DNA of 64,000 nucleotides from Magnetospirillum sp. 15-1 (GCF_900184795.1 NZ_FXXN01000026.1:314064-378063), one strand, 5' to 3'. Counted from the first letter of the stretch, positions 9,001-36,689 are shown. Numbers and translations are program-made. Notes: generated from the letters alone by a model not told the origin.

Positions 9001-11059
9001 GGGGCGGACGTTTCCCTCGCTCCGGTGGCTGATCTTCAGCGGCGAGGCCTTGCCGGTCCACCATGTGCGGCGATGGTTCGCGGATTACGGTTCCACCTGC
9101 CGTCTCGCCAACCTGTACGGCCCCACCGAGGCGTCCATCGACGTGACCTGCCATGTGATGGACGGGGCGCCCGGTCCCGATACCGTCCGCCTGCCCATCG
9201 GGAAGGCGCTGCCCAACGTGCAGATGTATGTGCTCGATGCGCAATTGCGGCCGGTCCCCGACGGCGAGCAGGGGGAGTTGTGCATCGGCGGAATCCAACT
9301 GGCGGTGGGCTATCTCGATGCCCCCGACCTCACGGCCGCCGCCTTTCCGGCCCGGGCGCTGCCGGGCCTGGTGGGCGGGCGCATCTATCGCACCGGCGAC
9401 ATCGCCATCCGTTCGCCGGACGGCACCTTCGACTATCTGGGGCGTATGGATTCCCAGGTGAAGATCCGGGGGTTCCGGGTGGAGCTGGGCGAGATCGAGG
9501 CGGTACTGCTGCGGCATCCGGCGGTGGACGAGGCCGCCGTCCTGGCCGAGGAAGGCGACGACGGGCACAAGCGTCTCGTCGCCTTCCTCGCCGGCCGCAG
9601 GACGCCCGATGCCGGGATCAAGGAATTCCTGGCGGAACGCCTGCCCCACTACATGATCCCCCACCGCATCGTCTGGCTCGGCCGCCTGCCCAAGAACCCC
9701 AACGGCAAGCTGGACCACCGGGCTTTGAAGGCGGGGCCGGAAATATCGGGTGCGGCGGCTCTGCCCCTCGCCCCGGCGCAAAGATGGCTGGTGCGGCATT
9801 TCCCACGGCCGTACAACTGGTGGGGTTATACGAGGTTCGTCTGCAAGTTCCGGATCGACCACGCAGTCCTTCGGGCCGCCTTCGCTTTCCTGCTGAAACG
9901 CCATCCCGCCCTGCGGACCGTGGTGCGCGAGACCGGCGGGCAATGGGCGCAGGTGGTTCTGCCGCCCGAGAGCCTGGACGATATGAGAATCGAGGTCATC
10001 GACGGTGCCGGTCAGGATGCGGACGGGCGGGACGATCTCCTCGCGGAAAAGGCGCTGGCGCTCTGCGAGGGCTTCGATATCGGAACCTGGCCCCTGGATG
10101 GGGCGATCATCCTGACGCGCGCCGACGGATGGTCGGAGTTCTGCATGGTCAACCATCACATCAACAGCGATTTCGTCTCGAGCGCCGTCCTGTTCCGCGA
10201 GTTCTGGCTGGCTTACGACGCCCTGGCGGCCGGTCGGCCCGTTCCGGCGCCCCCCCCCCCGGCCACGCCCGCCGATCTGGTGAACCACCTGACCGGGCTG
10301 GAGCGCGGCGGCGATCTCGAGCGCGACCTGGCCTACTGGCGGACCGCCCTGGACGGCCTGCCGGCCCGGCCCGCCTTCGCCCCCGATCACCCGGCCGCCC
10401 CCAACACCGAGGCGGAGGCCGGCGGTATCGAGGCCAGGATCGGGGCGCACGACGCCGAAATCCTGATGCGCCAGGGCAAGGCGCGGTTCGGCTGCACCCT
10501 CTACCCGCTGCTGCTGGCCCCGCTCTACCGGGCGATCGCCGAAGAATCGGGCGTCGCCACGGTGGCGGTGAGCCAGCGCATGAGCGGCCGGGACCTGGGA
10601 CCCGGCGGGCCGACGCTGGTCGAGGCGGTGGGAAATTTCGCCGTCCACTTCCCGTTGGTGGTCCGGAATGTGGAGGCCGTGGGCTGGACCGGGCTGGTGG
10701 AGGCCATCGCCGCCGGCCTGTCGGGCGTACCCCGTGGCGGAGTCACCTATGACTGGCTGGGGGTTCCCGGCCTTTACCCGGATGATTCCTTCGCGCCGGT
10801 GCGGGCCAACTATCTGGGGCATCTGCCGGCGCCGTCATCGGACCGCTTCGAGATGCCCGCGCGCCATTACAGCCGGCGCCTCGCCCCCGCCCGGCAAAAG
10901 CGGCCGGCGGTGGTGGAAATCCACTTCGCCGTGGTGCCCGAAGGCATCGACATCTCGCTCACCTGGTCGCGCCTCCAGTACCGCGCCGGCCGGGTCGAGG
11001 GGCTGCTGGAGCTTTACCGCCACCATCTGGACGGATTGCTGGCCGAGGTGGGGGGATAG
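2..11059 (+). CDS. Hybrid trans-AT polyketide synthase / nonribosomal peptide synthetase megasynthase, 5'-partial. The reading frame is open from nt 2 with no stop before the first ATG at 125. Visible domains: KR (about 2-1100, Rossmann motif GGVWLITGGGGGLG); ACP (about 1230-1440, DLGLSSI); C1 (1447-2740, HHISFDG); A1 (2790-4250, YTSGSTGRPKGV); PCP (4330-4560, LGVDSV); KS (4610-5890, DTACSSSLVAVHQAC, with a trans-AT docking linker and no cis-AT, 5890-6350); ACP (6370-6600, LGLDSIRL); C2 (6620-7950, EHLISDG); carrier (8000-8200, FGLDSLMMV); A2 (8230-9740, YTSGSTGRPKGVV); C3 (9760-11059, HHINSDF).
   Basis: One 3644-aa ORF carrying canonical KR, carrier, condensation (HHxxxDG variants), adenylation (A3 core YTSGSTGRPKG, A8 GRxDxQVKIRGxRIELGEIE) and ketosynthase (DTACSSS, HGTGT) motifs. 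No AT domain follows the KS, while discrete AT genes lie nearby, so this is a trans-AT system. Frame 2 has no stop codon between nt 2 and 125. Confidence 0.9.
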   Translation, partial: PVQAVFLLAPAPEIAAALRGAGIAIEAPAAADGDDLSRIEAMRRNALAALAAGKPLASVGWTDDPLGLAGAAMLAALAAEEPGLKLVSAAVEPELRHSAHLAEALATVLGAFELGHREWRIGLGGDGRPVWRTRRFLAVETAPAVPPPQGGVWLITGGGGGLGAIFARHLARTGAALALVGRRPPDQGIQALLAELRRMGARAEYRAADVADSGSLGAALGQLRTLLGPFTGVIHAAGVLDDRRFGDKTAESFRRVVSPKVVGARLLDHLTEADPLEHFVLFSSAAPWMGGAGQTDYAFANRYLDEFALWRERRRRDGGCPGRTIAIDWTLWRDGGMRPDSAALEMLSRETGLDALAEAAGTAAFDRALALAGAQVLVASGPSDAPALCRLRGEAPPTRPGAQLAARPLVEIVVEAMRLDTPPEPHQDLRDLGLSSITAIRLVNLLKECFGTAPRVGDILANPTLAALSATVATAAPRPESPFSEGQKALWTHYRLAPDSAAYNMPLALRLDPAVDAARLRDAVLRVAAATPALRARFKDDSPEPVQVADDRPPEVALTRLGAVAEADLTEMLRRAAKAPFRLEEEPAFRAHVFVDAEPGPILLAVFHHISFDGVSIQLFLDALGAALADRPVPPAAPYADFVDWQRRHLASAEAERELEWWRSELAAPIAPLDLPTPLRPRPSRPGSDGATLAVTLDPALVTGMREAARRTGVTPFTVALAACRTLLATYVEGGPVRLAVPVTLRPEPALAGTMGHLVNMVVIGDQTRPDEDVASSLRRLGGKVTAALDRSGVPFSMVQRAVAEARGRPTALSEMFHGAFYYQDWLARTPAGNGFSYRPLPGIHHEGEFELVVEVFAAADTTELRVKYDPLRIDPGTARLLADRYVGLLERLVADSASTLARLAAPTPREAERLSAWNRTEAAHDLDDTLIPRFRRQADASPDREAVACRGRSFTYRDLDAASAAFARTLAARGIGRGDRVGILLERSVDLVAALLGVMRSGAAYVPLDPAYPMERLAYMVSDSGMAAIATGPALADRARELGAEPVMVPGADDAGTDGAGTGGEPPAPRSSDTAYVIYTSGSTGRPKGVAVSHGNLINFLLSMAARPGLSAEDRLLAVTTICFDIAGLELYLPLLVGATVDVATEDVARDGVRLRRQLESGPISVMQATPATWQMLLAAGWRPNLRRMLVGGEALPRVLAERLGGGDGLWNVYGPTETTIWSTAGKVDIGGRVTVGTPIDNTRIAVVDAAGEVVPVGAVGELLIGGAGVAQGYWRQADLTADRFVDRGGPDGLVAKWYRTGDLARLLADGSLEILGRNDQQVKLRGHRIELGEIESTIMRHLGDADCAVVLRRDGGGAEMLTAFYVPGTDDPPPARRMRMLGRWLPDHMIPAGWVKLAALPRTDNLKTDRKALAEWSDTGCATAPAAPPARSPITAAGLGTGEIETALAGIVAARVGHDITPADLASPFVSLGVDSVRVVDVVRDVNARFGLDLTPTDVFNHPSLAALAGRIATLMPAAPPVRGTAGPVPAGTGDVAVIGYAARFPGARNAGNFWRNLAAGRCSITETPASRWRWQDIFDPRPQNPGTSYSKWGAYLDDIEMFDAPFFGMLEFEASRTDPQQRLFLEMAWMALEDAGYSGAAVDGAGCGVFAGAAFGDYHRLVEKAGHYDAFSMLGASPSLLPARIAYLLNLTGPTVAVDTACSSSLVAVHQACQSLNAGECAMALAGGVYLSVTPLAQMISAAAGILSADGTVRPFDAQAGGIAIGEGAGVVVLKPLDRALADGDTVRAVIRGSGVNQDGRTNGITAPNALSQAALIASVAERGGIDAGRISYIETHGTGTRLGDPVEIDGIRRALGGGTCALGSVKANIGHAYQAAGIAGLIKLILCLEHRQIPPQIGLSTINPLLRLDDGGLRIPRVLEDWNAGPTRIGGVSSFGFSGANAHVLVEEAPAPPPVPPPASGDVPDEVIVLSALDEDRLRAMAANLRERLEAAGPSLADVAHTLQAGRAVFACRLGFIARSTHEAAAALAAFAAGDPTGPRSVTVVPGRTMVGAADPTSQLAAWMAGDTVDWAIRRARHPARRIPLPGSVLRPVRCWIDAVREVEAPAPRPAAPPPPRDGSPPPVLSILAEYCSLRPQDLTPETHLEADLGLDSIRLMGLAARLVAVGIDIPMAKLAQARLVGDLAALAGASPPPPAPSRTESEPRVIPLLDAQMLFLLGHHLIDSSSLCSWVRLGGSFDLELARRAWQALVDRAPALRIAFTRPPGGERLGDIGAVLWPAESRTVPTLELEELSADAGGQARLQAFFDTQLNREWDLVGWPLHQFQVLRLGTDDHILAFTNEHLISDGIGNQAALRGFLEIYGALAEGREPSWNEGLDDGAYVALVEAMNARCFPDVGVGTGDGGAPYSWNPESRAIDDFRPLFTNRTHVFETGHTDRLKHAAERLGVSMNSLLVTAFARAARSTDGRGGDGVAVQVPTAGRTVGGHDAGRILGCFAQNLTATLPEGDWAEAARRFADMLAEDMAGHRDWAITRQLAGTAGREVPLVDGRVPDVLRSAFRSRLRSNLYAPYVGETGIAARYGGLAVAGYRAGTVNAAGTIDLLHEIFRGRLHSSWNWDAKFFPAQVIERLEAAFLSELDHAIAAAEDVPVPPRPSDVPSADGRLETLKALASEVCGQEITDVHADLEVNFGLDSLMMVRLVTRLPAGWLAGVERGRLLTARSLAGILARLDGASAPMPAATPIEAITAQAARTPDAVAIVGGKERLTYAEMDRLGTRVAEALVARGVKAGDIVAVLLAPGPSFLVAVQGILKAGAAYLPMDPSHPGDRLAFIAGHSKAGILLTEPGLRELAAHAAAHGVEPVLVDDLTGWTGGPRPALPAIDPQAPMVVLYTSGSTGRPKGVVLNHQGYANRLAWHQERFRLQPGEAVLHKTSAGFDISVWELFWPLMFGGTVHALERATAQNPWALADYVQAHSIAVMHFVPSMFGEFLGALSGEGRTFPSLRWLIFSGEALPVHHVRRWFADYGSTCRLANLYGPTEASIDVTCHVMDGAPGPDTVRLPIGKALPNVQMYVLDAQLRPVPDGEQGELCIGGIQLAVGYLDAPDLTAAAFPARALPGLVGGRIYRTGDIAIRSPDGTFDYLGRMDSQVKIRGFRVELGEIEAVLLRHPAVDEAAVLAEEGDDGHKRLVAFLAGRRTPDAGIKEFLAERLPHYMIPHRIVWLGRLPKNPNGKLDHRALKAGPEISGAAALPLAPAQRWLVRHFPRPYNWWGYTRFVCKFRIDHAVLRAAFAFLLKRHPALRTVVRETGGQWAQVVLPPESLDDMRIEVIDGAGQDADGRDDLLAEKALALCEGFDIGTWPLDGAIILTRADGWSEFCMVNHHINSDFVSSAVLFREFWLAYDALAAGRPVPAPPPPATPADLVNHLTGLERGGDLERDLAYWRTALDGLPARPAFAPDHPAAPNTEAEAGGIEARIGAHDAEILMRQGKARFGCTLYPLLLAPLYRAIAEESGVATVAVSQRMSGRDLGPGGPTLVEAVGNFAVHFPLVVRNVEAVGWTGLVEAIAAGLSGVPRGGVTYDWLGVPGLYPDDSFAPVRANYLGHLPAPSSDRFEMPARHYSRRLAPARQKRPAVVEIHFAVVPEGIDISLTWSRLQYRAGRVEGLLELYRHHLDGLLAEVGG

Positions 11060-11061
11060 GG

Positions 11062-11403
11062 TCAGACTTCCCAGTGTTCCTGGGCCTGGCCGTTCTCGAC
11101 CCGGAAGATATCCACCACCTCGATGGGCGAGGCGTAGCCGGGCGGCGGATTGGCCATGAACACCTTGCCGCGCACCACCACCAGATTCCCGATTTCGACG
11201 ATCCCGGTCATCTCGACCCTGAGGTCCGGCGACATTTCCAGATACCGGCCGAAGGCGGCCTTGAACCCCGCGCGCCCTTGCGGCACGCCGGCGGTATTCT
11301 GGATGTAGCCGGCGGCGATCAGCTCGTCGGCGGCGGACAGGTCGTGGGCATTGAAAATGTGCTCCCAGATGGCCGTCACCACCTCCTTGGGGGAAAGGGT
11401 CAT
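11062..11403 (-). CDS. SnoaL-like / NTF2-fold protein (polyketide cyclase or ester cyclase-like), about 113 aa
   Basis: C-terminal 113 aa of ORF 11062..11853, starting at Met MTLSPKEVVTAIWEHIFNAHDLSAADELIAAGYIQNT. Matches the NTF2-like SnoaL family pattern. Convergent with the megasynthase stop (2-nt gap). 4-nt overlap with the upstream ECH gene. Confidence 0.5.
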   Translation of the reverse strand: MTLSPKEVVTAIWEHIFNAHDLSAADELIAAGYIQNTAGVPQGRAGFKAAFGRYLEMSPDLRVEMTGIVEIGNLVVVRGKVFMANPPPGYASPIEVVDIFRVENGQAQEHWEV

Positions 11404-12209
11404 GGGTTGGGCTCCTTGCCGTCGGTTAAGGTCGGGGACGCCCACGGCGCCATCCCGGTTTCCAGATAGCGCCACAGGCTGGCGCGCAACGCGGGGCGGT
11501 CGGTAAGCCCGGTGATGGCGTCGACCGCGCGGGCTTCGTCCGCCGGGTCCATGGGAAGGCCGCCGTGAAAGAGGGCCTTCACCACCGCCGCGGACCCGGC
11601 CGGCAGCCGGCCGAGGCGAAGCGACAGGCGCCTTACGGCACCATCGACCGAGCCATCGGCCACGATCTCGTCCACGAGACCGTGCGTTTCCGCCGTCGTC
11701 GCGGTGACCGGCTCGGTGGTCAGCGCCATGGCGGCTGCGCGATGGGCGCCGATCCGCCGTTTCAGGTAGAGGCCGGCCAATGCCGGGACCAGCCCCCATA
11801 GCGCCTCGGGCAGGGCGAAGCGGGCGGCGGGCGTGGCGATCACCCGATCGCACGCGGCGGCAAGGCCGACGCCGCCGCCGAGAGCGGCTCCTTCCACCAC
11901 CGCCACGGTGACCAGCGGCGATCCGGCCAGCCGGCGCAATACGCCGGCGAAAGCCTCGTGCAGTCTCCGGCTGGTCTGTCCGTCGGGCAGGTTGACGACA
12001 TCGCGGAAATCCATGCCGGAGCAGAATTCGTCCTTGCCGCCCTCCACGGCCAGCAGCACCGCGCCCTGCTCGGCCGCCCGGTCGAGGACCGCCGACAATT
12101 CGCCCAACATCGCCATGGAAAGGGCATTGCCGGAGTCAGGGCGCTTCAGGGCGACCCGCCAGGCGCGTCCGGTGACGGCGACGTCGAGCGTGCTCCAGGT
12201 TCCGGCCAT
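11400..12209 (-). CDS. Enoyl-CoA hydratase/isomerase (crotonase) family protein, the ECH of the HMGS beta-branching cassette
   Basis: 269 aa with a crotonase fold signature (VAVVEGAALGGGVGLAAACDRVIA). Positioned directly downstream of the HMG-CoA synthase homolog, as in pksH/pksI-type cassettes. Confidence 0.8.
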   Translation of the reverse strand: MAGTWSTLDVAVTGRAWRVALKRPDSGNALSMAMLGELSAVLDRAAEQGAVLLAVEGGKDEFCSGMDFRDVVNLPDGQTSRRLHEAFAGVLRRLAGSPLVTVAVVEGAALGGGVGLAAACDRVIATPAARFALPEALWGLVPALAGLYLKRRIGAHRAAAMALTTEPVTATTAETHGLVDEIVADGSVDGAVRRLSLRLGRLPAGSAAVVKALFHGGLPMDPADEARAVDAITGLTDRPALRASLWRYLETGMAPWASPTLTDGKEPNP

Positions 12210-12217
12210 TCCCGCCC

Positions 12218-13483
12218 TCAGCTCCAGCCGTAGATGCGGTGATAATCCTCGATCCCCTTCAGCACCAGAAGCCCCCTGTCCTTGAATCGCTGATCATAGA
12301 TGTCGCGGAACGGCGAAATATCCACCTCTCCGTCCTTGACGCCGAACAGCCACGGGGCGTTGAGGTCGAGGATGCGGTCATAGTCGGGGATGGAGAGTTT
12401 GCGCCGCGCCGCCAGTTGGGCCTGCGTCCCCATGGACCGCATCCTTTCCGCCGACCGGGCATCGGCGACCCCCGAAAAGAACTCGGACGAACACCCCGAT
12501 CCGTAGGAGAACAGGCCGATGCGCTTGGGCAGGGTGAAGTCCATCCCGTCGAGAAGGCCGGCGAGCGCGATGAAGACCGTGGCGGAATAGGCGTTTCCCA
12601 CCTGCGCGCAGAATTGGAGCGACGGCGCCACCCTCCGATCGAAATCCGCGTCGATTTCCGCCGGGGCCATCTTCTTGAGCCGGCGCAGCATGGTGCGGTG
12701 GGCGCCCTTGACCATGCCCGCGAAGGGGGTGTGGAAGGCGAGCGCGCCGAAGCTTTGGAGGAAATCCGCCCCGTCCACCCGCGCCGCATAATCCGCGAAG
12801 GCGCCGTCCAGGCATTCCAGATAGGCCATCAGGGACAGGTCGGCATTTCCGGTTTCTATCTCGGCGGTGGGGCGGCAGGTGTCCATCACCTCGTAGCTGC
12901 ACAGGCCGTTGGCGCCCAGGTCCAGGTCCAGGATCACCGGCCTGTCGCTGACCAGCATGGCCGCCGCGGCGACCCCCTGGGATGGTTCGGCGTAACCGAG
13001 CTTGACCGACGGACGGGCGACGTCCGTGGCGATGACCAGCGCCGTCCGTCCCGGCATCAGCCCGGAGGCCACCTGATTCGTCGCCATCTGCAGGGCGGCC
13101 GTCGCCCCGTAGCAGGCCTGCTTGACCTCGAACACCCGGCAGGACCGGCTGAGCCCCAGATGGTCGTGAACGTAGGTGGCCAGCGCCTTGCCGAAATCGA
13201 TGCCCGATTCGGTCGAGGTCACCAGGAGGGCGATGGACGCGCGTTCCTCGTCCGACAGGCGGTCGATGATGGGCTTGGCGGCATTGACCGCGTTGGTCAC
13301 GGCATCCTCGCAGGGCAGGTTCACCGCCTTGCGCCGCATCATCAGATTGGCCTGGCGGGCGGGGTCGAGGCCCCGCGCCACGAACAGATCGTCCACTTCG
13401 ATGAAGGCCTGGGTACCGTAGACGCTCAAGTATTCGATGCCGACGCGGCGTTCGTTTCCGTCCATCCCGTCCTCATTTCCCAA
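12218..13483 (-). CDS. HMG-CoA synthase-like protein (HCS/PksG family) for polyketide beta-branching
   Basis: 421 aa with HMGS family motifs (VGIEYLSVYG at the N-terminus, catalytic Cys context EVKQACYGATAAL, NAYSATVF). The alternative start MDGNERR is 18 nt downstream. Confidence 0.85.
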   Translation of the reverse strand: MGNEDGMDGNERRVGIEYLSVYGTQAFIEVDDLFVARGLDPARQANLMMRRKAVNLPCEDAVTNAVNAAKPIIDRLSDEERASIALLVTSTESGIDFGKALATYVHDHLGLSRSCRVFEVKQACYGATAALQMATNQVASGLMPGRTALVIATDVARPSVKLGYAEPSQGVAAAAMLVSDRPVILDLDLGANGLCSYEVMDTCRPTAEIETGNADLSLMAYLECLDGAFADYAARVDGADFLQSFGALAFHTPFAGMVKGAHRTMLRRLKKMAPAEIDADFDRRVAPSLQFCAQVGNAYSATVFIALAGLLDGMDFTLPKRIGLFSYGSGCSSEFFSGVADARSAERMRSMGTQAQLAARRKLSIPDYDRILDLNAPWLFGVKDGEVDISPFRDIYDQRFKDRGLLVLKGIEDYHRIYGWS

Positions 13484-14756
13484 TGGCGGCGCGGATCACC
13501 ACCGCCGTATGGATGCCGCCGAAACCGAAGGAGTTGCTGACCATGGTGCCGATGGCCGCGTCGCGCGGCCCGGCCCCCACCAGATCGAGCCGGTCGGTGA
13601 CCGGATCATCGAGATTGCGGTTGGGATGGAGGAAGCCCTCTTCCATCTGAAGGATCGCGGCCACCGCCTCGACCAGCCCGGCCGACCACAGCCCGTGGCC
13701 CAGCAGACCCTTGGGCGCGTTGACCGCCACCCGGTGGGGCCCGAACAAGGCGTCCAGGGCCTCGGCTTCCGTCCGGTCGCCAAGGGGCGTGGACGTGGCA
13801 TGCGCGCTTACCGCGTCCACGTCCGCCGGCTCCAGCCCCGCCCGCCGCAGCGCCAGTTCCATCGCCCGAAACTCGGCCGCCCCGTCGGGAACGGTATGCC
13901 CGTTGCCCGAAAGGGCCGCCGCGCCGCCGGCCAGGATGGCGCGCGGCGTCGCTCCGCGCCGGGCGGCGATCTCTCCGGCTTCCAGCACGACGGCCGCCGC
14001 CGCCGCGCCCGGGATGAACCCTTCGGCGGCACGGTCGAAGGGGCGGCAGGCGCGATCCGGTTCCCGGGCGAAGGAATGTCCGCCGATGGCGCCCAGGCTG
14101 GAAAGGGCCTGGTATTCCATGGGTGAAAGATCGGCGGGAGGGGCGATGACGAGGCAGAGGTCGGCGTCTCCCCCCCGGATCATCCTGGCGGCCTGGATCA
14201 GGGCCAGATTGCCCGAGGCCGAGGCGCCGCCCACGGTCATTCCCTCACCCAACAGGCCCAGGACCTCGCTGGCGATACCCAGGGGGAAACTGTCCATGAA
14301 TCCGACCCCCCAGGCGGGCGAAAGCCATTCGGGGGAGTTCCGGAACTTCTCGTGCAGCCGGTATTGCTGGCCGGTGGTGGCGTTCTGGGCGGCAACGACG
14401 ATACCGGCCCGCTCCGGGTCGGGCGGTCCCGCCGTCAGCCCGGCCATGGCCCAGGCTTCCAGCGCGGCGAGCGTCACCGCCTGCACCGTCGGGTCCGCCC
14501 GATGCGCGAGGCGCCGGGTCCGCCGGGCCGCATCGGGCAGGCCCGGCACGAGCTCCGCCAGGGCCGCGGCGAGGTCGATCGGGGGCAACGGCGCCCGGAC
14601 GACGGGAAACGACAGGGGCGCAGGATGCTCGGTCAGGAACGCGGGGGGGAGAGCGCCCTTCAGCCCCTGCGACAGTCGGGCGAGGCCGATGCCGAAGGGG
14701 GTGACGACCCCCATTCCGGTGACGGCCACGCTGCCGGGACGGTCATAGGGCATCAC
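13473..14756 (-). CDS. Ketosynthase of the beta-branching cassette, active-site Cys replaced by Ser (decarboxylating KS-S, PksF/CurC-like)
   Basis: 427 aa FabF-like. The active-site region reads GGASASGNLAL where canonical KS has ACxSG. His motifs ISAHATSTPLGD and GHGLWSAG are present. Stop overlaps the HCS start. Start overlaps the ACP stop. Confidence 0.8.
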   Translation of the reverse strand: MMPYDRPGSVAVTGMGVVTPFGIGLARLSQGLKGALPPAFLTEHPAPLSFPVVRAPLPPIDLAAALAELVPGLPDAARRTRRLAHRADPTVQAVTLAALEAWAMAGLTAGPPDPERAGIVVAAQNATTGQQYRLHEKFRNSPEWLSPAWGVGFMDSFPLGIASEVLGLLGEGMTVGGASASGNLALIQAARMIRGGDADLCLVIAPPADLSPMEYQALSSLGAIGGHSFAREPDRACRPFDRAAEGFIPGAAAAAVVLEAGEIAARRGATPRAILAGGAAALSGNGHTVPDGAAEFRAMELALRRAGLEPADVDAVSAHATSTPLGDRTEAEALDALFGPHRVAVNAPKGLLGHGLWSAGLVEAVAAILQMEEGFLHPNRNLDDPVTDRLDLVGAGPRDAAIGTMVSNSFGFGGIHTAVVIRAAIGK

Positions 14757-14989
14757 CCGCCGCCGAGAACGATGGCGATCTCACCGAGATTGCGGCACCG
14801 GGCGAACCGGGTCATCGGCACCTTGACCGACAGGCGCTCGGCCGCTTCCAGAATGATCTCGGCACGTTCGATGGAATTGGCCCCCAGATCCTTCAGCGAA
14901 TCCTCCGGCCCGAGCCGGCCGGCGGCGATGTCGGGAAGCACCTCGGCCACGCAGGCGGCAAGCGTTTCGAAGATCCGGTGATCCGCCAT
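14753..14989 (-). CDS. Discrete acyl carrier protein (donor ACP of the HMGS cassette)
   Basis: About 79 aa with the phosphopantetheine-attachment motif DLGANSIE. A longer alternative start lies at 15016 (MDGMNMDGQ...) and would overlap the AT-ER stop at 15004. Confidence 0.7.
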   Translation of the reverse strand: MADHRIFETLAACVAEVLPDIAAGRLGPEDSLKDLGANSIERAEIILEAAERLSVKVPMTRFARCRNLGEIAIVLGGG

Positions 14990-15003
14990 CTGCCCGTCCA
15001 TGT

Positions 15004-17289
15004 TCATCCCATCCATTCCGTGAAGCGCCCGGTGATGAGGCTGGCCGCCCCGTTCATCAGGCGGAGGCCGATCTCGGCGACCTTGCGGTTCCGCCAGTCT
15101 TCCAGATCCGTGCCCTTGACCCAGGCGTTGAAGGCGCCCATGGCCGGGCCGGTGTGGATCTGGAAATTGACCTTCTGATCCATGGCGCCGTCGAGGGCCA
15201 AGCGCGTGGTGTCGAGGAAATACCGTTTGAACACCAGGGCCATCTTGAGCTTCGGGTTCCGTTCGGCCTCGGCCAGCGTGTCGGGCTCGTCCCTGGCGTA
15301 ATGATCCGCCGTCTGGCGCCAGACCTCGTCGAGGCCGCGGCCGAAGAAGCGGCTTTCCAACTGCTCGCGGGTTCGCGCGTCCATGTCGTCCAGGCCGTCC
15401 AGCCGGCGGTAAAGCTCGAACAGCTTGTTGGCGCGGGCGGGAAAGAACAACCCCTTGGCGGCGACCTGGACCTTGGCCCCCAGTTCGAACATGTCGCCCG
15501 CCGGCGCATAGGCGGTGTCGTGGATGTCGAGCGACACCAGGATATCCTTGACCGCGCCGCTGGTCGCCGCCTCGACCGTGCACTGGTTGACCGAGCCGGT
15601 GACCACGAAGTCCGCGCCCAGCATGAAGGCGGCCGCCGCCGCTTCCGGCGTTCCGATCCCCCCCGCCGCTCCGACGCGGATGGGCTCGGCCCAGGCCCGC
15701 TCCGCCATCACCCGGTCGCGCAGGCGCATGATGGCGGGAAGCGCGGTGACTAGGGAACGCTGGTCGGTATGTCCGCCTGAATCGGCCTCGACGCAGATGT
15801 CGTGGGCGATGGGCGCACGCCGGGCGCACCAGGCTTCCTCCTCGGTCAGTTGTTCCCGGCGCACCAACTGGTCGATGACCTCCTCGGGGGCCGGCGCCAT
15901 GAACTGGGCCGCTACTTCCGGCCGCGACACCTTGGCGACGACGCGGGTGGCGAGCGCCACGCCACCGTCGGGCAACCGCCTGGCCCCGGCGTATCGCAGA
16001 CGAACCAGCGGCGGAGTGACCTGGAGGAACGCGGCGGCCTCGACCGTCGGCACCCTGGCCTCCAGCAGCAGGTCCACCATCTCCATCTCCGCCGCCGGCC
16101 GGTCGGGCCGGCTGAGGAGATTGACGCCCCAGGGATGGCCGTGGCCCAGCGCGGCCCGGATCTCCTCTATGTCGCGCCGCACCTGTCCGGGATCGACGCC
16201 GCCGGTGCCGAGGAAACCCAGCAATCCGGCGCGCCCCAGGGCAATGACCATGCGGGGGCCGGCGATGGCCTTGTACATTCCCCCCGCCGCATAGGCCAGC
16301 CGGGTTCCGTGCGCCTCGCGGAACGCCGCCGAACCCAGCTTGCGGGCGTCGAGGCCGGAGGGCGGAGGCGGCGCGGCGGGGGCGGCCTCCGGCTCGGGGT
16401 CCGACCCCGCGTCTTCGGGCAGGGGCGCCGCCTGGATCTTCACCACCAGCTTGGCCAGCACGTCGCCCGGCCCCACCTCCTCGAAGGTCCGGGCGCCACG
16501 GGCCAGGGCGTACTGGACGCTCTCGACCCAACGGACCGATCCGGTGATCTGGCTGACCAACTGGCGGCGCAACACGGCCGCCGCCCCGCGAAGGGGATAG
16601 GGCCTCGCGGTGACGTTGGAGATCACCGGCAAGGCGGGGTCGGCGAAATCGAATCCTTCGGCGAAGGACGCGAAAGCCTCGGCGGTGGGGATCATGTGGC
16701 GGGAATGGAACGGGGCCGACACCGGCACCGGGATGGGGATGGCGCCCTCGTCCTGGAAGACGGCGGCGGCCTGGTCCAGCTCGCCCTTCAGTCCGGCCAG
16801 GACCGTCTGTTCGGCGGTGTTGAGGTTGGCCACGTCGATGCCCGACAGGCCATGCCGTGCCAATACCGCGCGGATGCGGTCCGTCGTCAGGCCGATGACG
16901 GCCAGCATGGTGCCGCCCTTGGCTTCGTTCATCAGGCGGCCGCGTTCGCGGACCAGCCTGAGCCCGGTCTCGAAGTCGAACACCCCCGCCGCGAACAGCG
17001 CGGTGAATTCCCCCAGGCTGTGCCCCATCACCATGGAGGGGGCGGCGGCGCCGTCCTCGAGGCGCGCCAGCCAAGCAAGGGCCGACACCGCGAACAACGC
17101 CGGCTGGGTATGGTCCGTGCGGTCGAGAAGCCCGTCGGCATCCCTCAGGCAGAGATCCGCCAGGGAATAGCCCAGGATGGCATCCGCCCTGGCCACCAAC
17201 TCGGGAAAGCGGGGGAACAGGCCGGCGCCCATGCCGACCCGTTGCGATCCCTGGCCGGGGAACATGCAGACGACCGTCATTCGCTCCAT
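15004..17289 (-). CDS. Trans-acting acyltransferase / enoyl reductase didomain protein (PksE-like AT-ER)
   Basis: N-terminal malonyl-CoA:ACP transacylase motifs (FPGQGSQ, GHSLGE). C-terminal FMN-dependent nitronate-monooxygenase/PfaD-like enoyl reductase part (GAAGGIGTPEAAAAAFMLGADFVVTGS). Start taken at MERMTVVCMFPGQGSQ (ATG complement at 17289). The longer ORF to 18147 is low-complexity and overlaps the PPTase. Confidence 0.85.
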   Translation of the reverse strand: MERMTVVCMFPGQGSQRVGMGAGLFPRFPELVARADAILGYSLADLCLRDADGLLDRTDHTQPALFAVSALAWLARLEDGAAAPSMVMGHSLGEFTALFAAGVFDFETGLRLVRERGRLMNEAKGGTMLAVIGLTTDRIRAVLARHGLSGIDVANLNTAEQTVLAGLKGELDQAAAVFQDEGAIPIPVPVSAPFHSRHMIPTAEAFASFAEGFDFADPALPVISNVTARPYPLRGAAAVLRRQLVSQITGSVRWVESVQYALARGARTFEEVGPGDVLAKLVVKIQAAPLPEDAGSDPEPEAAPAAPPPPSGLDARKLGSAAFREAHGTRLAYAAGGMYKAIAGPRMVIALGRAGLLGFLGTGGVDPGQVRRDIEEIRAALGHGHPWGVNLLSRPDRPAAEMEMVDLLLEARVPTVEAAAFLQVTPPLVRLRYAGARRLPDGGVALATRVVAKVSRPEVAAQFMAPAPEEVIDQLVRREQLTEEEAWCARRAPIAHDICVEADSGGHTDQRSLVTALPAIMRLRDRVMAERAWAEPIRVGAAGGIGTPEAAAAAFMLGADFVVTGSVNQCTVEAATSGAVKDILVSLDIHDTAYAPAGDMFELGAKVQVAAKGLFFPARANKLFELYRRLDGLDDMDARTREQLESRFFGRGLDEVWRQTADHYARDEPDTLAEAERNPKLKMALVFKRYFLDTTRLALDGAMDQKVNFQIHTGPAMGAFNAWVKGTDLEDWRNRKVAEIGLRLMNGAASLITGRFTEWMG

Positions 17290-18083
17290 CCCTCCAGGGC
17301 CGCCGCCGCCCGCGACAGCCAGCCGCCCCACGCCCCCATCCAGGGGGGCGTACCCACCGGCTGCACGTTGTGGGGCAGCACCAGCGCCACGGCCAGCCGG
17401 CCGCAAACCCGGCTGATTCCCAGATATTGGCCGAAATTGGTGAAATCGGCGCGGTACACCGGGCCATCGAGGGTCAGGCGGGAAACCTCCAGCAGCTCGA
17501 AGGGGACCGTCAGCCCGCAACGCAGAACCTTGGACAGGGCCTCCTTCAGGCACCAGAGGCGGGTCAGCCCCTCCTCGGCCGAGGCGGCGGCGGCCGTCGC
17601 CATGCTCCGCTCGGACGGGGTCGTCTGGCTTTCCATGGCCGCCAGGCGGTCCGGGGCGATCAGCTCCACGTCCACCCCCATGGGGCAGGCTTCGGGAAAG
17701 GCGACGGCCAGGGCCACCGGGCCGGCATGGGACAGGCTGACCTGCAGGTTGGCCGTGCCCGGCCCCGCCACCACGGGCTGTTCCAAAACCCCGGGGCGGA
17801 TGGCGACGGCGCGGGGGGCGAGACCAGGGACAAGCGCGGCCAGAGCGCCCTTGGCGGCATGGCGGCCCGCCAGAAGGCTGTGGCGCCGCCGGGGATGCAT
17901 CCGGTCGGTCAGCATTACCGCCTCGCTCGGATGCAGGAACGCGTCCCCCTCCCCCTCCAGCCAGCCGAACGGGGCCAGGGTGATGGCCGACGCCGCCCGC
18001 AACGGCCCCCGTTCGCCGTTCAGCCCGAACGGCTCGGCTTGGAACCAGGCGGGGGAGTCGTCGAGGATCGGGGCACCCGACAT
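17277..18083 (-). CDS. Sfp-type 4'-phosphopantetheinyl transferase
   Basis: 268 aa with PPTase motifs GVDVELIAPDR and WCLKEALSKVLRCGL (the W/FxxKEAxxK signature). The 3' end overlaps the AT-ER start by 13 nt. Confidence 0.8.
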   Translation of the reverse strand: MSGAPILDDSPAWFQAEPFGLNGERGPLRAASAITLAPFGWLEGEGDAFLHPSEAVMLTDRMHPRRRHSLLAGRHAAKGALAALVPGLAPRAVAIRPGVLEQPVVAGPGTANLQVSLSHAGPVALAVAFPEACPMGVDVELIAPDRLAAMESQTTPSERSMATAAAASAEEGLTRLWCLKEALSKVLRCGLTVPFELLEVSRLTLDGPVYRADFTNFGQYLGISRVCGRLAVALVLPHNVQPVGTPPWMGAWGGWLSRAAAALEGWSE

Positions 18084-18092
18084 GGCGGACGG

Positions 18093-20189
18093 CTAGGTCG
18101 AGGCGTGGTGGAGGAGGCGAACCGCCTCGCCGGTCTGCACCCGCCAAAGGCCGGCATAGATGCCTTTCCGGCGCAGCAGCGCCTCGTGCGAGCCGGACTC
18201 GACGATCCGCCCTTCCTCCAGGACGTGGATCATGTCGGCATTGCGCACCGTCGAAAGGCGGTGGGCGATCATCACCGTCGTCCGGTCCCGCGAAATGCGG
18301 TCGATGGACAACTGGATGGCGGCTTCCGTCTCGTTGTCCACCGCCGAGGTCGCCTCGTCGAGGATCAGGATGGGCGGATTCTTCAGCATGGTCCGGGCGA
18401 TGGAGATGCGCTGGCGCTGGCCGCCCGACAGCTTCTTGCCGCGCTCGCCGACGGCGGTGTCGTAGCCGTCGGGCAGCGCCTCGATGAAGGCGTGGGCCTC
18501 GGCGGCCTTCGCCGCTTCCACCACGTCCTCGAAGCTCGCGGCCGGCCGGCCGTAGAGGATGTTGTCCCGGATGCTGCCGTCGAACAGGGACACGTCCTGG
18601 CTGACGAAGCCGATGGCCCGGCGCAGGTCCGTGAGGTCGAGATCGCGCAGGTCCTTGCCGTCCAGAAGAACCGAGCCGCCGTTGACGTCGTAGAAGCGCA
18701 TCATCAGCTTGACCAGGGTGCTTTTGCCGGCACCGGTGGAGCCGACGAAAGCCACCGTCTGGCGCGGCGGGATCGTCACGCTGAAATTCCGGAACAGCGG
18801 ATTGTCGGGCCGGTAGGCGAAGTCGATGCCGTCGAAACGCACCATGCCCTCGACCCGGTTGGCGGGCAGTGGCGTGTCGCCGCCGACGATGGTGGGTTCG
18901 GCGCGGATGAGCTTCAGCAGCTCGGCGGCGGAGCCCACCGCGTTCTTGTACATGTCGTAGCCTTCGCCCATGCCCTCCATGCGCACCAGCAGCTTGGGCA
19001 CGAAGAACAGCAGCAAGGTGAACATGGACGGCGCGATGCTGTTGCGGGCCACCAGGAACCCGCCGGCGGTCATCGACAACGCGAAGGACAGCGAGATCAG
19101 CAAACGCATGACATCGGTATATTTCGAGCTGGTGGCCACGGCGCGGTCGCTGGTGTCGCGCACCCCCTGGCTGATCTGGAGCAGGCGGCCCACCTCCTGC
19201 CGCTCGGCGGTGAAGCTCTTGATGGTCGCCAGGTCGGTGAGGTTGTTGGACAGCAGCTTGTTGAGCCGGCTGTTGACCTCGGCCATCTCCTCGTAGGGCT
19301 TCTCGGTCTTGGTCTGGACGTAGCGGGCGCCCAGCATGATGATCGGCAACGGGACCAGGGCGGTGACCGCCAGGGTGGGCGAGACCGCCAGCAGGGTCAC
19401 GACGATGATCAGGGCCGTGATGGCCCGCTGGAGCATGTCGTCCGCCCCCGTCTCCAGAAAGCGGTTGATGGTGGCCAGATGCTCCGACAGGGTGCGGACC
19501 AGCGCCCCCGAGGACTGGTTCTCGATGGTCGCCAGATCCAGTTCCTGGACGTGGGCGTAGGTATCGACGCGGACGCGGTGTTCCAGATCACGCGCCATCC
19601 TGCGCCAGGCTTCCCGCTTCTTGCGCTCCACGACCAGTTCGGCGGCGAAGGCGGCGGCGGTGAAGGCGCCCAGGAACACGAGCTGCGCCGGCATCGACCG
19701 CAATCCCATCGCCGCCAGGAACTTGGGCGCATCCTTGTTGACCACGTTGACGATGGCTACCAGCCCCAGCTCGGGCAGGAAATTGACCACGTTGTTGACG
19801 ATGGACCACAGGGGAGCCTCCCGCGCGCCCCTGCGGTCCAGCTTGAACCGCGTGAGGAGTTCCCGCAGCGGGTTGCCCGCCGAAAGAAGGGCGGGGTGGA
19901 CGGTCTCCTCCTCCGGCCGCCGGCCGCCGGGGGCGGCCTCCCGGACGAGGCGGTCGAGGGCGTCGCGGATCACCCGGGCGCCGTTGACCGTGAGGGCTTC
20001 AAAGTGGAGGAGAACCCGGCCGGTGAGGTGATTGGCCCGGACGTCCCGGACGCCGGCCACGCCGCCCACCAGCGCCTCGAGGCGCTGGGCGAGGTCGCGC
20101 CGCCCCACAAGGCCAGGGATGTCCCAGCGTTGACGCCCGGGAATTTCTGAACGCAGGCGGAGATCGAAGATATCGGCGGCCATGCCCAT
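18093..20189 (-). CDS. ABC transporter, fused permease/ATPase (type I exporter) with an about 100-aa N-terminal extension
   Basis: 698 aa with six predicted TM helices, Walker [10 protein letters not shown], signature [16 protein letters not shown] and Walker [13 protein letters not shown]. Confidence 0.85.
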
Positions 20190-20428
20190 CAGTTGCCGCG
20201 ATCCCCCTCGGCGCGGGAACCGGCCGGCTGGCCCGCTGGGGGGGCATTCCGCTTGTCCAGGACGTCACGCCATTCGGCGCGAACATCCTCGACGTCCTCC
20301 TTGACGCCGCTCAGCCCACCCGCCACGCAATTGCACAGGCGGTTCACGATGCCCACCAGCATGGTCGGAGAACTGCGCGCCGCCATGAACAGCACGATCA
20401 GGACAACAAGCAACAGAGCCCAGAACAT
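20189..20428 (-). CDS. Hypothetical small membrane protein (about 79 aa)
   Basis: ORF 20189..20491. Preferred start MFWALLLVVLIVLFMAARSS (hydrophobic helix), preceded by GGGGGA 8 nt upstream. No recognisable family. Confidence 0.3.
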   Translation of the reverse strand: MFWALLLVVLIVLFMAARSSPTMLVGIVNRLCNCVAGGLSGVKEDVEDVRAEWRDVLDKRNAPPAGQPAGSRAEGDRGN

Positions 20429-20498
20429 GCGCTCGATCCCCCGAACATACCGCTGCCCGCCCCGCCTCGACGGCGGCGGGAGCGGAACCAACGGAAAT

Positions 20499-20816: not shown

Positions 20817-20921
20817 CTTGCCACCCTCGGATAGATGAAATGAGCCTTCCACAGCAGCCAGCCGATCAGTTGCCCCTGTCGGGTCGCCACCTCGCCCTAA
20901 TGGTTATCACAAAACTAGGTC

Positions 20922-21956
20922 CTATGCACCTTGAGTTGTCCATCGCGAATGGAAATTTTCCGTCCTGGATCGGCCGTTTCCCTTTTCCTGGCGGTCAGGC
21001 GGGGCGCCTTCCCCGCGGACGGCCAGCGCCTTCGCCAGCCGTTCCCGCAATGCCGCCACCGAAGCCTGGCCCGGCGTCATGAGGCTGACCACCCGTCCGT
21101 CGGCCTCGGGGCCCAGGAGGTATCTGACGAAATTGGCCAGGGTGCCCGACGGCCCCACGTCGACGTAGAATTGCCGCCCCTCGCGCTCCAGCTTCCGCAC
21201 GGTGTCGGCGAAGAGGATCGGCTGGCGGACGATATTCCAGAGATGCCCCCGGGGAATGACCCTGCGCTCCTGGCCGTCGACGCAGGAAATCAGCGGCACC
21301 CGGGCCTCGCCAATCGTCACGCCGCCGGCCAGGCGGTCGAAAACCGCCTTGGCCGGATCGATGAAGGACGCGTGGAACCCGAAGGAAACCTCGAGACGCT
21401 GAAACAGGATGTCGCGTCCCGACAGCGCATTCTCCAGGGCGGCGAGGCGGTCCACGGGGCCGCTCACCACGAAATGCCGGTCGAAGTTGACGGCGGCCAC
21501 TTCCAGGCCGGCGAACAGGGCCGGTTCCTGCCGGGGCAGAAGGGCGTCGGCCAGGACGGCGGTCATCCCCCCCCTTGGGGCATGCGCCTCGAATCCGACG
21601 GCCTGGGCCTGGAGCAGGCGGAACATGAGTTCGGGCTCGACCGCCCCCGCGAACGCCATGGCCGTGTATTCGCCCAGGCTGGCGCCCAAGATGCGGTCCG
21701 GATGCACGCCCCATGAGCGAACCGCGTGGCACAGCGCCAGTTCGACGGCATAGAGCGTGGGATGGGTCCGCGTCAGCCGGTCGAACGGCGACGAGGCCGG
21801 GGAAACGGCATACAACTCGTCCACCACCGAAAAGCCGGCCTCGCGCTGGCCCAGATGGTCGGCCCAGAATATCCAGCGGCGGAAGACGGGATCTTCGTCG
21901 AACAGGGTGCGGCCCATGCCGCGGTAATGCGATCCCTGGCCCGACAGCAGGAACAC
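20922..21956 (-). CDS. Discrete trans-acting acyltransferase or acyl-hydrolase (second AT of the trans-AT system)
   Basis: 344 aa. N-terminal FLLSGQGSHY (the GQGSQ-like motif) and active-site GASLGEY, where the usual His of GHSxG is replaced by Ala and the catalytic Ser is kept. Non-ATG start: the codon at 21956 is GTG. The frame stays open upstream. Confidence 0.75.
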   Translation of the reverse strand: MFLLSGQGSHYRGMGRTLFDEDPVFRRWIFWADHLGQREAGFSVVDELYAVSPASSPFDRLTRTHPTLYAVELALCHAVRSWGVHPDRILGASLGEYTAMAFAGAVEPELMFRLLQAQAVGFEAHAPRGGMTAVLADALLPRQEPALFAGLEVAAVNFDRHFVVSGPVDRLAALENALSGRDILFQRLEVSFGFHASFIDPAKAVFDRLAGGVTIGEARVPLISCVDGQERRVIPRGHLWNIVRQPILFADTVRKLEREGRQFYVDVGPSGTLANFVRYLLGPEADGRVVSLMTPGQASVAALRERLAKALAVRGEGAPPDRQEKGNGRSRTENFHSRWTTQGA

Positions 21957-36607: not shown

Positions 36608-36689
36608 AGCCGGCCGCCGCGACCGGGGGGGGGCCTCCCCTCCGATCGCGGCGCCCCTTCCCCCCAGCTTCATCACCGAGGACCTTGCA

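What the first reader, a model, noticed from the sequence alone, without database searches (positions are those of the whole stretch)
11062..15016. HMGS beta-branching cassette with a single crotonase and a SnoaL-like protein
The cassette has ACP, KS (Cys to Ser), HCS and only one ECH. Canonical cassettes use an ECH1 dehydratase plus an ECH2 decarboxylase. No ECH domain is visible in the megasynthase part that lies inside the window. The translationally coupled SnoaL/NTF2-like protein (11062-11403) might substitute for one of the ECH functions or act as a cyclase. The beta-branch outcome (exomethylene versus methyl versus other) is therefore not predictable from the known rules.
Basis: partly seen in the sequence, partly recalled or inferred. 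Interest (0 to 1): 0.6.

Follow-up and report, generated by a model that had tools for sequence, protein, structure and literature searches.

The report
Beta-branching cassette with SnoaL-like partner
This is a real polyketide beta-branching gene cassette in which a small SnoaL/NTF2-fold protein occupies the operon position where related cassettes carry the decarboxylase ECH2, a pairing conserved in several related clusters, but its chemical role is untested and a hidden ECH2 domain upstream of the window could not be excluded.

Summary
On the minus strand, 11062-15016 encodes donor ACP, a Cys-to-Ser KS, an HMG-CoA synthase homologue, one crotonase and a 113-aa SnoaL-fold protein whose ATG overlaps the crotonase stop.

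The crotonase is an ECH1 dehydratase. It keeps the PksH Asp68/Glu137 equivalents and lacks the conserved ECH2 histidine. No other crotonase-like sequence exists in the 64 kb, including the in-window 3685 aa of a trans-AT PKS/NRPS.

A single discrete ECH is not unusual in itself. ACP, KS0, HMGS and ECH1 form the known minimal cassette (bryostatin, leinamycin). Other pathways embed ECH2 in the megasynthase.

The new element is the ECH1-SnoaL pair. It recurs, with overlapping or closely adjacent genes, in every sampled locus of two ECH1 lineages (ECH identity down to 43%) and in different cluster layouts. Three sampled relatives outside these lineages carry ECH2 in that slot. I found no paper linking the two.

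The SnoaL-like protein is most likely a cassette component acting on the ECH1 product. Decarboxylation, isomerisation or cyclisation cannot be told apart.

No in-window carrier domain has the Trp flag of branching ACPs. The roughly 2240 residues upstream, inferred from the orthologue, could not be retrieved, so an embedded ECH2 is not excluded.

The parts
14753..15016 (-). Donor acyl carrier protein (ACP_D) of the beta-branching cassette. It is 87 aa from the ATG at 15016; in-frame alternative starts lie at 15007 and 15001. The start overlaps the stop of the AT-ER gene.
   Evidence: Pfam PP-binding. NCBIfam PRK07117 at 82.7 bits against a cutoff of 79. The orthologue is called as 87 aa in L001 and 84 aa in L003. 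The Ser lies in the motif DLGANS.
13473..14756 (-). Non-elongating ketosynthase (KS0/KS-S) that decarboxylates malonyl-ACP_D to acetyl-ACP_D.
   Evidence: Pfam ketoacyl-synt N and C domains. Best NCBIfam hit PRK07103 at 421 bits, just below its cutoff of 445. The active-site Cys is replaced by Ser (VGGASASG against VDTACSSS), and both His residues are kept (HATST, LLGH).
12218..13465 (-). HMG-CoA synthase homologue (HCS/HMGS), 415 aa from the ATG at 13465.
   Evidence: Pfam HMG_CoA_synt_N and HMG_CoA_synt_C. NCBIfam TIGR01835 at 250 bits. Motifs containing candidate Glu, Cys and His residues are readable (TSTESGID, VKQACYGAT, AFHTPF). The orthologues are 415 aa.
11400..12209 (-). ECH1-type crotonase, the dehydratase for HMG-ACP. 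It is the only crotonase in the window.
   Evidence: Pfam ECH_1 E 7e-39. PDB hits: 4NNQ E 6e-44, PksH 3HP0 E 3e-28, 8AHQ E 9e-24. Best NCBIfam hit PRK07112 at 165 bits, next best 109. It is 42-49% identical to ECH1s of two-ECH cassettes and 21-27% (E >= 0.11) to their ECH2s. D67 and E135 align with PksH D68 and E137, and no His aligns with PksI H230.
11062..11403 (-). SnoaL/NTF2-fold protein of 113 aa. Its ATG overlaps the ECH stop (ATGA). It occupies the slot that ECH2 holds in related cassettes.
   Evidence: Pfam SnoaL_2 and SnoaL E 1e-14. AlphaFold2 pLDDT 94.2. Foldseek matches IdmH, 3G0K, TsrD, KSI, LEH and SnoaL. Orthologues lie directly after ECH1 in L001-L003, L062, L063, L064, L066 and L068.
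15004..17280 (-). Trans-acting acyltransferase fused to an enoyl reductase (AT-ER).
   Evidence: Pfam Acyl_transf_1, NMO and FabD_helical_ins. NCBIfam fabD at 284 bits and pfaD_fam at 621 bits. Start candidates are listed. The 1047-aa ORF 15004-18147 is a frame artefact.
17277..18083 (-). 4'-phosphopantetheinyl transferase in the same operon.
   Evidence: Pfam ACPS E 5e-13. It is syntenic in L001 and L003.
18093..20189 (-). ABC exporter with an N-terminal HMA_2-like domain, in the same operon.
   Evidence: Pfam ABC_membrane, ABC_tran and HMA_2. It is syntenic in L001.
20922..21956 (-). Second discrete acyltransferase-family gene at the head of the operon. The true start may lie upstream of the GTG. 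Its active-site motif reads GASLGE.
   Evidence: Pfam Acyl_transf_1 E 2e-32. Sequence shown. The L001 orthologue is 363 aa.
2..11059 (+). C-terminal 3685 aa of a trans-AT PKS/NRPS megasynthase, convergent with the cassette. The two stop codons are 2 nt apart. Domains: KR-ACP-C-A-PCP-KS-ACP-C-carrier-A-C. It has no AT and no ECH domains.
   Evidence: Pfam scans. The orthologue is 5926 aa in L001/L002. The junction sequence is shown.

Best explanation
The region is the 3' end of a minus-strand operon: AT, two small ORFs, ABC exporter, PPTase, AT-ER, ACP, KS0, HCS, ECH1, SnoaL-like. The operon supplies trans-acting functions to a convergent trans-AT PKS/NRPS.

KS0 decarboxylates malonyl-ACP_D to acetyl-ACP_D. 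HCS adds the acetyl unit to a beta-keto intermediate on an acceptor ACP. ECH1 then dehydrates the HMG-type adduct to a 3-carboxymethyl-enoyl (methylglutaconyl-type) thioester. These steps are inferred from homology and conserved catalytic residues.

The cassette has no discrete ECH2. In its place is a dedicated NTF2/SnoaL-fold protein that has co-evolved with this ECH1 lineage. It most likely acts on the ECH1 product, so it decides the fate of the branch. It could act as a non-homologous decarboxylase, or it could use the retained carboxylate or double bond for isomerisation or cyclisation. This last step is inferred from gene context only. My rough split is 0.2-0.25 for decarboxylation and 0.25-0.3 for another transformation of the carboxylated intermediate.
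For: Anatomy and catalytic residues of ACP, KS0, HCS and ECH1 come.

ECH1 assignment:
- The best PDB hits include PksH and 8AHQ, the VirD/ACP5b complex entry cited in PMC10006238.
- The window ECH groups with ECH1s, with ECH2s as outgroup, in an NJ tree.
- D67 and E135 align with PksH D68 and E137.

No ECH2-like sequence exists in any frame of the 64 kb.

Slot evidence:
- L060, L061 and L067 read HCS-ECH1-ECH2. L060 and L061 also share the AT/ER/ACP/KS0 order of the window.
- The window and L001, L002, L003, L062, L063, L064, L066 and L068 read (HCS-)ECH1-SnoaL. The genes overlap, or are 25 nt apart in L063, across ECH identities of 92% down to 43%.
- The pair is kept in different layouts: a convergent megasynthase in the window, L001 and L063, and a same-strand gene beginning with a KS domain in L064 and L068.

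The cassette-linked SnoaL proteins are 63-97% identical to each other. The nearest plasmid-borne NTF2 proteins are at most 38% identical.

The NTF2 fold is used by enzymes that stabilise enolate-type intermediates (KSI, SnoaL) and by cyclases and epoxide hydrolases (PMC6018673).
Against: - No experiment and no known product exist for this cluster.
- The acceptor module was not identified. None of the four in-window carrier domains has Trp, or the Phe seen in virginiamycin, at the flag position. The branching module is therefore probably in the roughly 2240 residues (or further genes) upstream, and it could carry an embedded ECH2 as in curacin, pederin, sesbanimide or kalimantacin.
- The SnoaL-like protein has Trp13 and Thr37 where KSI has Tyr14 and the base Asp38.
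- NTF2 proteins are common tailoring enzymes in polyketide clusters, so adjacency alone is weak evidence.
- The sampled loci are few and partly related. The window, L001, L002, L003 and L062 count as one lineage.
Confidence: 0.5

Rival explanations
1. Decarboxylation is done by an ECH2 domain embedded in the unseen upstream modules, as in curacin/jamaicamide, the pederin family, sesbanimide or kalimantacin. The SnoaL-like protein would then be an ordinary tailoring enzyme, for example a cyclase or isomerase acting elsewhere on the chain.
For: One discrete ECH combined with embedded tandem ECH domains and Trp-flagged tandem ACPs is described for sesbanimide and the pederin family. A modular ECH2 is described for kalimantacin, phormidolide and oocydin. 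No in-window carrier has the Trp flag, so the branch site is probably upstream. About 2240 residues of the orthologous 5926-aa protein lie outside the window. NTF2 proteins are proposed as ring-forming enzymes in other trans-AT clusters.
Against: This does not explain why the SnoaL-like gene tracks ECH1 phylogeny and sits in the ECH2 slot with overlapping reading frames in clusters of different layout. In L064 and L068 the megasynthase gene that follows begins directly with a KS, not with an ECH2 domain as in CurF and JamJ (the CurF/JamJ layout is from my own knowledge).
Confidence: 0.3
2. This is a plain minimal cassette. The carboxymethyl (methylglutaconyl-type) branch is simply retained, as in bryostatin, leinamycin or the C-3 branch of bongkrekic acid. 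The SnoaL-like protein acts on another part of the molecule or after release.
For: Pathways without ECH2 keep a carboxylated branch (PMC12560621). No ECH2 is present in the window. The best PDB hit of the ECH is 4NNQ, a Streptomyces-type putative hydratase.
Against: The same co-inheritance argument applies as for the first rival. No O-methyltransferase or other obvious carboxylate-modifying gene lies in the operon. ECH1 dehydration is described as a reversible equilibrium that normally needs a following step to pull it forward.
Confidence: 0.15
3. The SnoaL-like ORF is a non-functional passenger or a mis-called ORF.
For: High-GC DNA gives many spurious ORFs.
Against: Third-position GC is 0.89 in its frame. 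The Pfam E-value is 1e-14. The model has pLDDT 94. About 45 residues are invariant across orthologues of 63-97% identity. The position is conserved in at least six lineages.
Confidence: 0.02

Closest known systems
Canonical discrete HCS cassettes of trans-AT PKSs (bacillaene AcpK/PksF/PksG/PksH/PksI; virginiamycin VirC/D/E; mupirocin; kalimantacin BatA-E)
   Same: It has the same donor ACP, Cys-to-Ser KS, HMGS homologue and ECH1 in the same gene order. The best NCBIfam models are the AcpK, PksF and PksH models (PRK07117, PRK07103, PRK07112; I assign these PRK numbers to the B. subtilis proteins from memory). The trans-AT context includes AT-ER.
   Different: There is no discrete ECH2 (PksI, VirE, BatE). 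A 113-aa NTF2-fold gene sits in that position.
Minimal cassettes without ECH2 (bryostatin BryT-type; leinamycin LnmF-type)
   Same: ECH1 is the only crotonase, and by known rules the predicted outcome is a retained carboxylated branch (PMC12560621).
   Different: The leinamycin-family cassette as I recall it uses an AT/decarboxylase (LnmK) in place of a KS0, whereas a KS0 is present here. No SnoaL-like partner is described for those cassettes in the papers read. The product here is unknown.
Cassettes with one discrete ECH plus megasynthase-embedded ECH domains (sesbanimide SbnF-I with SbnO; pederin family; curacin CurE/CurF)
   Same: HMGS, ACP, KS and a single discrete ECH.
   Different: Those systems have ECH domains next to Trp-flagged tandem ACPs. 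None is present in the 3685 aa seen here. Whether one lies upstream is unknown.
SnoaL/NTF2-like enzymes of polyketide pathways (SnoaL, IdmH, LgaL, MonB-type) and ketosteroid isomerase
   Same: The fold matches (Foldseek probability 1.0, TM 0.7-0.8). It is 25-32% identical to 3G0K and IdmH. An Asp aligns with KSI Asp99.
   Different: It is shorter, at 113 aa. Trp and Thr replace the KSI Tyr14 and Asp38 equivalents. It forms its own tight clade. It is linked to an HCS cassette, a linkage I found in no paper.

Membership tests
HCS (HMGS) beta-branching cassette | Discrete donor ACP with a phosphopantetheine-attachment Ser | tested here: met
   PP-binding E 6e-10. PRK07117 scores above its cutoff. 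The motif DLGANS is present.
HCS (HMGS) beta-branching cassette | Non-elongating KS with the active-site Cys replaced (Ser) and both His residues retained | tested here: met
   Pairwise alignment with the modular KS shows DTACSSS against GGASASG, HGTGT against HATST and NIGH against LLGH.
HCS (HMGS) beta-branching cassette | HMG-CoA synthase homologue with a Glu/Cys/His catalytic set | tested here: met
   Pfam N and C domains are found. TIGR01835 scores 250 bits, below the 360 cutoff set for primary-metabolism enzymes. The motifs were read directly; the residue roles come from my own knowledge of the family.
HCS (HMGS) beta-branching cassette | ECH1 dehydratase | tested here: met
   See the ECH1 rows below.
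HCS (HMGS) beta-branching cassette | ECH2 decarboxylase, discrete or embedded. It is optional: absent from minimal cassettes. | tested here: not met
   No ECH2-like sequence occurs in the 64-kb window in any frame or in 10 kb of the operon in L001. Upstream megasynthase sequence outside the window was not testable.
HCS (HMGS) beta-branching cassette | Acceptor ACP(s) with the DSxxxxxW flag, usually in tandem, in a module that keeps the beta-keto group | tested here: not met
   The in-window carriers read SSITAIRL, DSVRVVDV, DSIRLMGL and DSLMMVRL, so all have Leu or Val at the flag position. The flag is not universal: virginiamycin has Phe and leinamycin lacks it. Upstream ACPs were not available.
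ECH1 (PksH/CurE/VirD-type dehydratase) | Crotonase fold with the PksH Asp68 and Glu137 equivalents and the oxyanion-hole motifs | tested here: met
   FCSGMD67F and LPE135ALWGL align with PksH FCFGAD68F and LSE137LLFGL. The residue roles come from PMC7501309.
ECH1 (PksH/CurE/VirD-type dehydratase) | Groups with ECH1s rather than ECH2s by sequence | tested here: met
   It is 42-49% identical to L060 and L061 ECH1 (E 1e-32 to 1e-35) and 21-27% to their ECH2 (E 0.11-4.9). The NJ tree agrees. PRK07112 is the best model, but at 165 bits it is below the equivalog cutoff of 250.
ECH2 (PksI/CurF-type decarboxylase) | The conserved catalytic His (PksI His230 / CurF His240) | tested here: not met
   L060 and L061 ECH2 have ELAMH at that position. 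The window ECH has VDAITGL, with no His. The rule comes from PMC7501309.
ECH1+ECH2 fusion | Two crotonase domains or a bipartite protein | tested here: not met
   The protein is 269 aa with a single ECH_1 match covering residues 19-257.
SnoaL/NTF2-like superfamily | Alpha+beta cone fold | tested here: met
   pLDDT 94.2 and pTM 0.86. Foldseek matches many NTF2 enzymes with TM 0.7-0.83. Pfam SnoaL and SnoaL_2 score above their cutoffs.
Ketosteroid isomerase-type catalysis | Tyr14, Asp38 and Asp99 (C. testosteroni numbering) | tested here: not met
   MAFFT alignment gives Trp13, Thr37 and Asp98.
SnoaL aldol cyclase proper | The catalytic Asp/His/Gln set of SnoaL and an anthracyclinone-type substrate | not tested
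   Only fold-level similarity to 1SJW was found (rank 38, 20% identity). No residue-level comparison was made.
trans-AT PKS/NRPS | Modules without an integrated AT, served by discrete AT genes | tested here: met
   The 3685 aa contain no Acyl_transf_1 domain. Discrete AT and AT-ER genes are present.

The most novel reading that the evidence does not exclude
A lineage of beta-branching cassettes has replaced the crotonase-fold ECH2 with an unrelated NTF2-fold enzyme. That enzyme processes the methylglutaconyl-type ACP thioester made by ECH1. This would be either a non-homologous decarboxylase or a new branch outcome, for example isomerisation or cyclisation through the retained carboxylate. It would add a new enzyme class to the rules of polyketide beta-branching.
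Probability: 0.3. Interest if true: 0.75.

Novelty: new variant of a known kind. Interest (0 to 1): 0.5.

Why it matters
Beta-branch type (methyl, exomethylene, carboxymethyl and others) is currently predicted from the presence and type of ECH1 and ECH2 enzymes. A conserved ECH1-NTF2 pair that excludes ECH2 from its usual slot would be a recognisable marker for a cassette subtype whose chemistry current rules do not cover. It would also be a compact, testable two-enzyme system using HMG-ACP as substrate. If an embedded ECH2 turns up upstream, the finding reduces to an ordinary cassette with an adjacent tailoring gene.

Tried and rejected
Attempts to reach the upstream part of the megasynthase all failed:
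- Exact look-ups of the window's ECH and SnoaL proteins found nothing, so the source genome is not in that collection.
- A homologue search with the first 483 aa of the megasynthase returned nothing at E <= 1e-60; the 5926-aa orthologue was not retrieved.
- A genome-contig scan found only a 25%-identical Polyangiaceae locus.
- A metagenome-contig scan with L001's own sequence did not recover the JGI contig and gave only hits of 50% identity or less.
- A HMMER search of 1.84 billion representatives with the first 1200 aa was swamped by multi-module NRPSs, and no orthologue appeared.
- A plasmid megablast with the cassette gave only 73%-identical Streptomyces HMGS fragments.

The ENA contig in L062 would add only about 370 residues, and its end lies beyond the 10-kb flank.

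Taxonomy is only approximate. The formate dehydrogenase gene is about 75% identical to Azospirillum chromids, which points to a Rhodospirillales-like alphaproteobacterium.

Literature searches for SnoaL or NTF2 together with ECH2, HMGS or beta-branching found no linking paper. A search for the PDB code 4NNQ gave nothing useful, so I do not name that protein.

Ideas considered and rejected:
- An ECH1/ECH2 fusion or a bifunctional crotonase: the protein is a single domain with no ECH2 histidine.
- The in-window KS-ACP module (no KR) as the evident branch site: it has no Trp or Phe flag, no tandem ACP and no supporting evidence.

Full report
**Observation**

The window is about 70% GC, so raw ORF lists are full of artefacts. 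Third-position GC and Pfam/NCBIfam scans give a clean picture.

A megasynthase gene runs on the + strand from the left edge of the window to 11059. Converging on it, with the two stop codons 2 nt apart, is a minus-strand operon:
- AT (20922-21956)
- two small ORFs
- ABC exporter (18093-20189)
- PPTase (17277-18083)
- AT-ER (15004-17280)
- ACP (14753-15016)
- KS (13473-14756)
- HCS (12218-13465)
- ECH (11400-12209)
- SnoaL-like protein (11062-11403)

The finding's coordinates match the last five genes exactly. The KS has Ser for the active-site Cys and keeps both His residues. The SnoaL ATG overlaps the ECH TGA. Genes to the right of about 22 kb are unrelated: Band 7, ABC, RND, LysR, MFS, formate dehydrogenase and MCP.

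**What the crotonase is**

It is a single-domain, 269-aa ECH1.
- Its best solved relatives are 4NNQ (a putative enoyl-CoA hydratase), PksH (3HP0) and 8AHQ, the entry cited for the VirD/ACP5b work.
- The best NCBIfam model is PRK07112, well ahead of all others although below the equivalog cutoff.
- It carries D67 and E135, which align with PksH D68 and E137. Those are the residues shown by mutagenesis to matter for dehydration.
- It lacks the histidine that PMC7501309 reports as conserved in all reported beta-methyl-branching decarboxylases (PksI His230 / CurF His240).
- Against real ECH1/ECH2 pairs taken from related loci, it is 42-49% identical to the ECH1s and 21-27% (E >= 0.11) to the ECH2s.

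**Is there another ECH?**

Not in the window. tblastn with ECH1 and ECH2 queries finds no second crotonase in any frame of the 64 kb. The 3685 in-window residues of the megasynthase read KR-ACP-C-A-PCP-KS-ACP-C-carrier-A-C.

This is weaker evidence than it looks. None of the four in-window carrier domains has Trp at the DSxxxxxW position that flags branching ACPs, nor the Phe seen in virginiamycin (motif). The acceptor module is therefore probably upstream.

In the orthologous JGI contig the megasynthase is 5926 aa, so about 2240 residues lie beyond the left edge of the window. I could not retrieve them by any route.

**Comparison with what is known**

A single discrete ECH is a described state.
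- PMC12560621 calls ACPD, KS0, HMGS and ECH1 the minimal cassette. It notes that bryostatin and leinamycin lack a trans-acting ECH2 and keep a carboxylated branch. It also notes that kalimantacin, phormidolide and oocydin use modular ECH2 domains.
- The sesbanimide cluster has HMGS, ACP, KS and one ECH as discrete genes, plus tandem ECH domains and Trp-flagged tandem ACPs in the megasynthase, like the pederin family.

**What is new**

Related loci show that the SnoaL-like gene is not a chance neighbour.
- The closest relatives (ECH 88-92% identical, SnoaL 94-97% identical) have the same operon (L001, L002, L003, L062).
- More distant ECHs are also followed directly by a SnoaL-like gene. These are L063 (51% identical), L066 (46%), L068 (43%) and the partial ECH of L064. 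The genes overlap in L064, L066 and L068 and are 25 nt apart in L063.
- The layouts differ. The megasynthase is convergent in the window, L001 and L063, and a same-strand gene beginning with a KS domain follows in L064 and L068.
- Three sampled ECH1 relatives outside these groups carry ECH2 in exactly that slot (L060, L061, L067). In L060 and L061 the operon is otherwise the same as the window's (AT, AT, ER, ACP, KS0, HCS, ECH1).
- In an NJ tree the SnoaL-linked ECHs form two groups near the base of the ECH1 radiation.
- All of them keep the ECH1 catalytic motifs.

The SnoaL-like proteins are a tight family. They are 63-97% identical to each other, with about 45 invariant residues. The nearest plasmid-borne NTF2 proteins are at most 38% identical. 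I found no paper connecting SnoaL or NTF2 proteins with ECH2, HMGS cassettes or beta-branching.

**The SnoaL-like protein itself**

AlphaFold2 gives a confident NTF2 cone (pLDDT 94.2). The nearest structures are IdmH, 3G0K, TsrD, putative cyclases, limonene epoxide hydrolases, ketosteroid isomerase and SnoaL.

In alignment with KSI, Asp98 matches Asp99, but Trp13 and Thr37 replace Tyr14 and the base Asp38. Invariant polar residues that could line the pocket include H20, Y33, Q35, T37, R44, D98, R101 and H110. Function cannot be read from homology.

**Mechanism**

The inferred steps are:
- KS0 makes acetyl-ACP_D.
- HCS adds it to a beta-ketoacyl-ACP.
- ECH1 dehydrates the adduct to a 3-carboxymethyl-enoyl thioester.

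ECH1 dehydration is described as a reversible equilibrium giving a transient intermediate, so a coupled follow-up enzyme makes sense. The gene context makes the SnoaL-like protein the best candidate for that step (confidence about 0.5). Decarboxylation through an enolate-stabilising pocket, double-bond isomerisation, or cyclisation using the retained carboxylate are all chemically plausible and cannot be separated here.

The rivals are:
- an embedded ECH2 upstream, with the SnoaL-like protein as unrelated tailoring (0.3);
- simple retention of the carboxymethyl branch (0.15);
- a non-functional ORF (0.02).

**Verdict**

"Only one ECH" is ordinary in itself. The conserved ECH1-SnoaL pair in the ECH2 slot appears to be an undescribed variant of a known system and is worth a bench test. 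The decisive computation is a domain scan of the complete cluster, and I could not run it.

Noticed in passing
window 6100-11059 (+), megasynthase residues ~2100-3685: The domain order at the C-terminus is unusual: KS-ACP-C-carrier-A-C. The last adenylation domain (AMP-binding_C ends at residue ~3236) is followed directly by a terminal condensation domain (HHINSD motif) with no carrier between them. The only nearby carrier lies upstream of the A domain.
   Followed up: partly
window 11057-11064: The stop codons of the convergent megasynthase (TAG, 11057-11059) and the SnoaL-like gene (TGA on the minus strand, 11062-11064) are 2 nt apart. This leaves no room for a terminator between the two transcription units.
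   Followed up: no
window 20189-20852 (-); L001 1392-2018: Two small ORFs lie between the first AT and the ABC exporter. The L001 orthologues match DUF6072 and, weakly, DUF6110. The exporter has an N-terminal HMA_2-like domain. Together they may form a conserved export or immunity unit.
   Followed up: partly
window 20922-21956 (-): The first discrete AT-family protein has GASLGE instead of the usual GHSxG active-site motif. No ATG, GTG or TTG start lies upstream of the conserved GQGS motif, so its start and its function (acyltransferase or acyl hydrolase) are unclear.
   Followed up: no
window 22204-25249 (-); L061 11679-15699: A Band 7/SPFH gene and an ABC transporter flank the PKS operon in the window. 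A Band 7 gene and an ABC transporter also follow the cassette in the distant locus L061. They may belong to the cluster.
   Followed up: no
window 15004-18147 (-): The 1047-aa ORF in the mechanical ORF list is an artefact. Codon-position GC shows two genes in different frames: PPTase 17277-18083 and AT-ER 15004-17280.
   Followed up: yes
L067 3995-13436: A Polyangiaceae MAG locus carries HCS-ECH1-ECH2 among discrete type II-like enzymes (FabA-like dehydratase, KS, several SDRs, ACP, aminotransferase), with no megasynthase in view. This is a different setting for an HCS cassette.
   Followed up: no
window 36423-41535 (+): A NAD-linked formate dehydrogenase-type operon (2Fe-2S thioredoxin-like, NuoF-like and molybdopterin alpha subunits) is about 75% identical at the DNA level to Azospirillum chromids. 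It is the only taxonomic hint obtained.
   Followed up: partly
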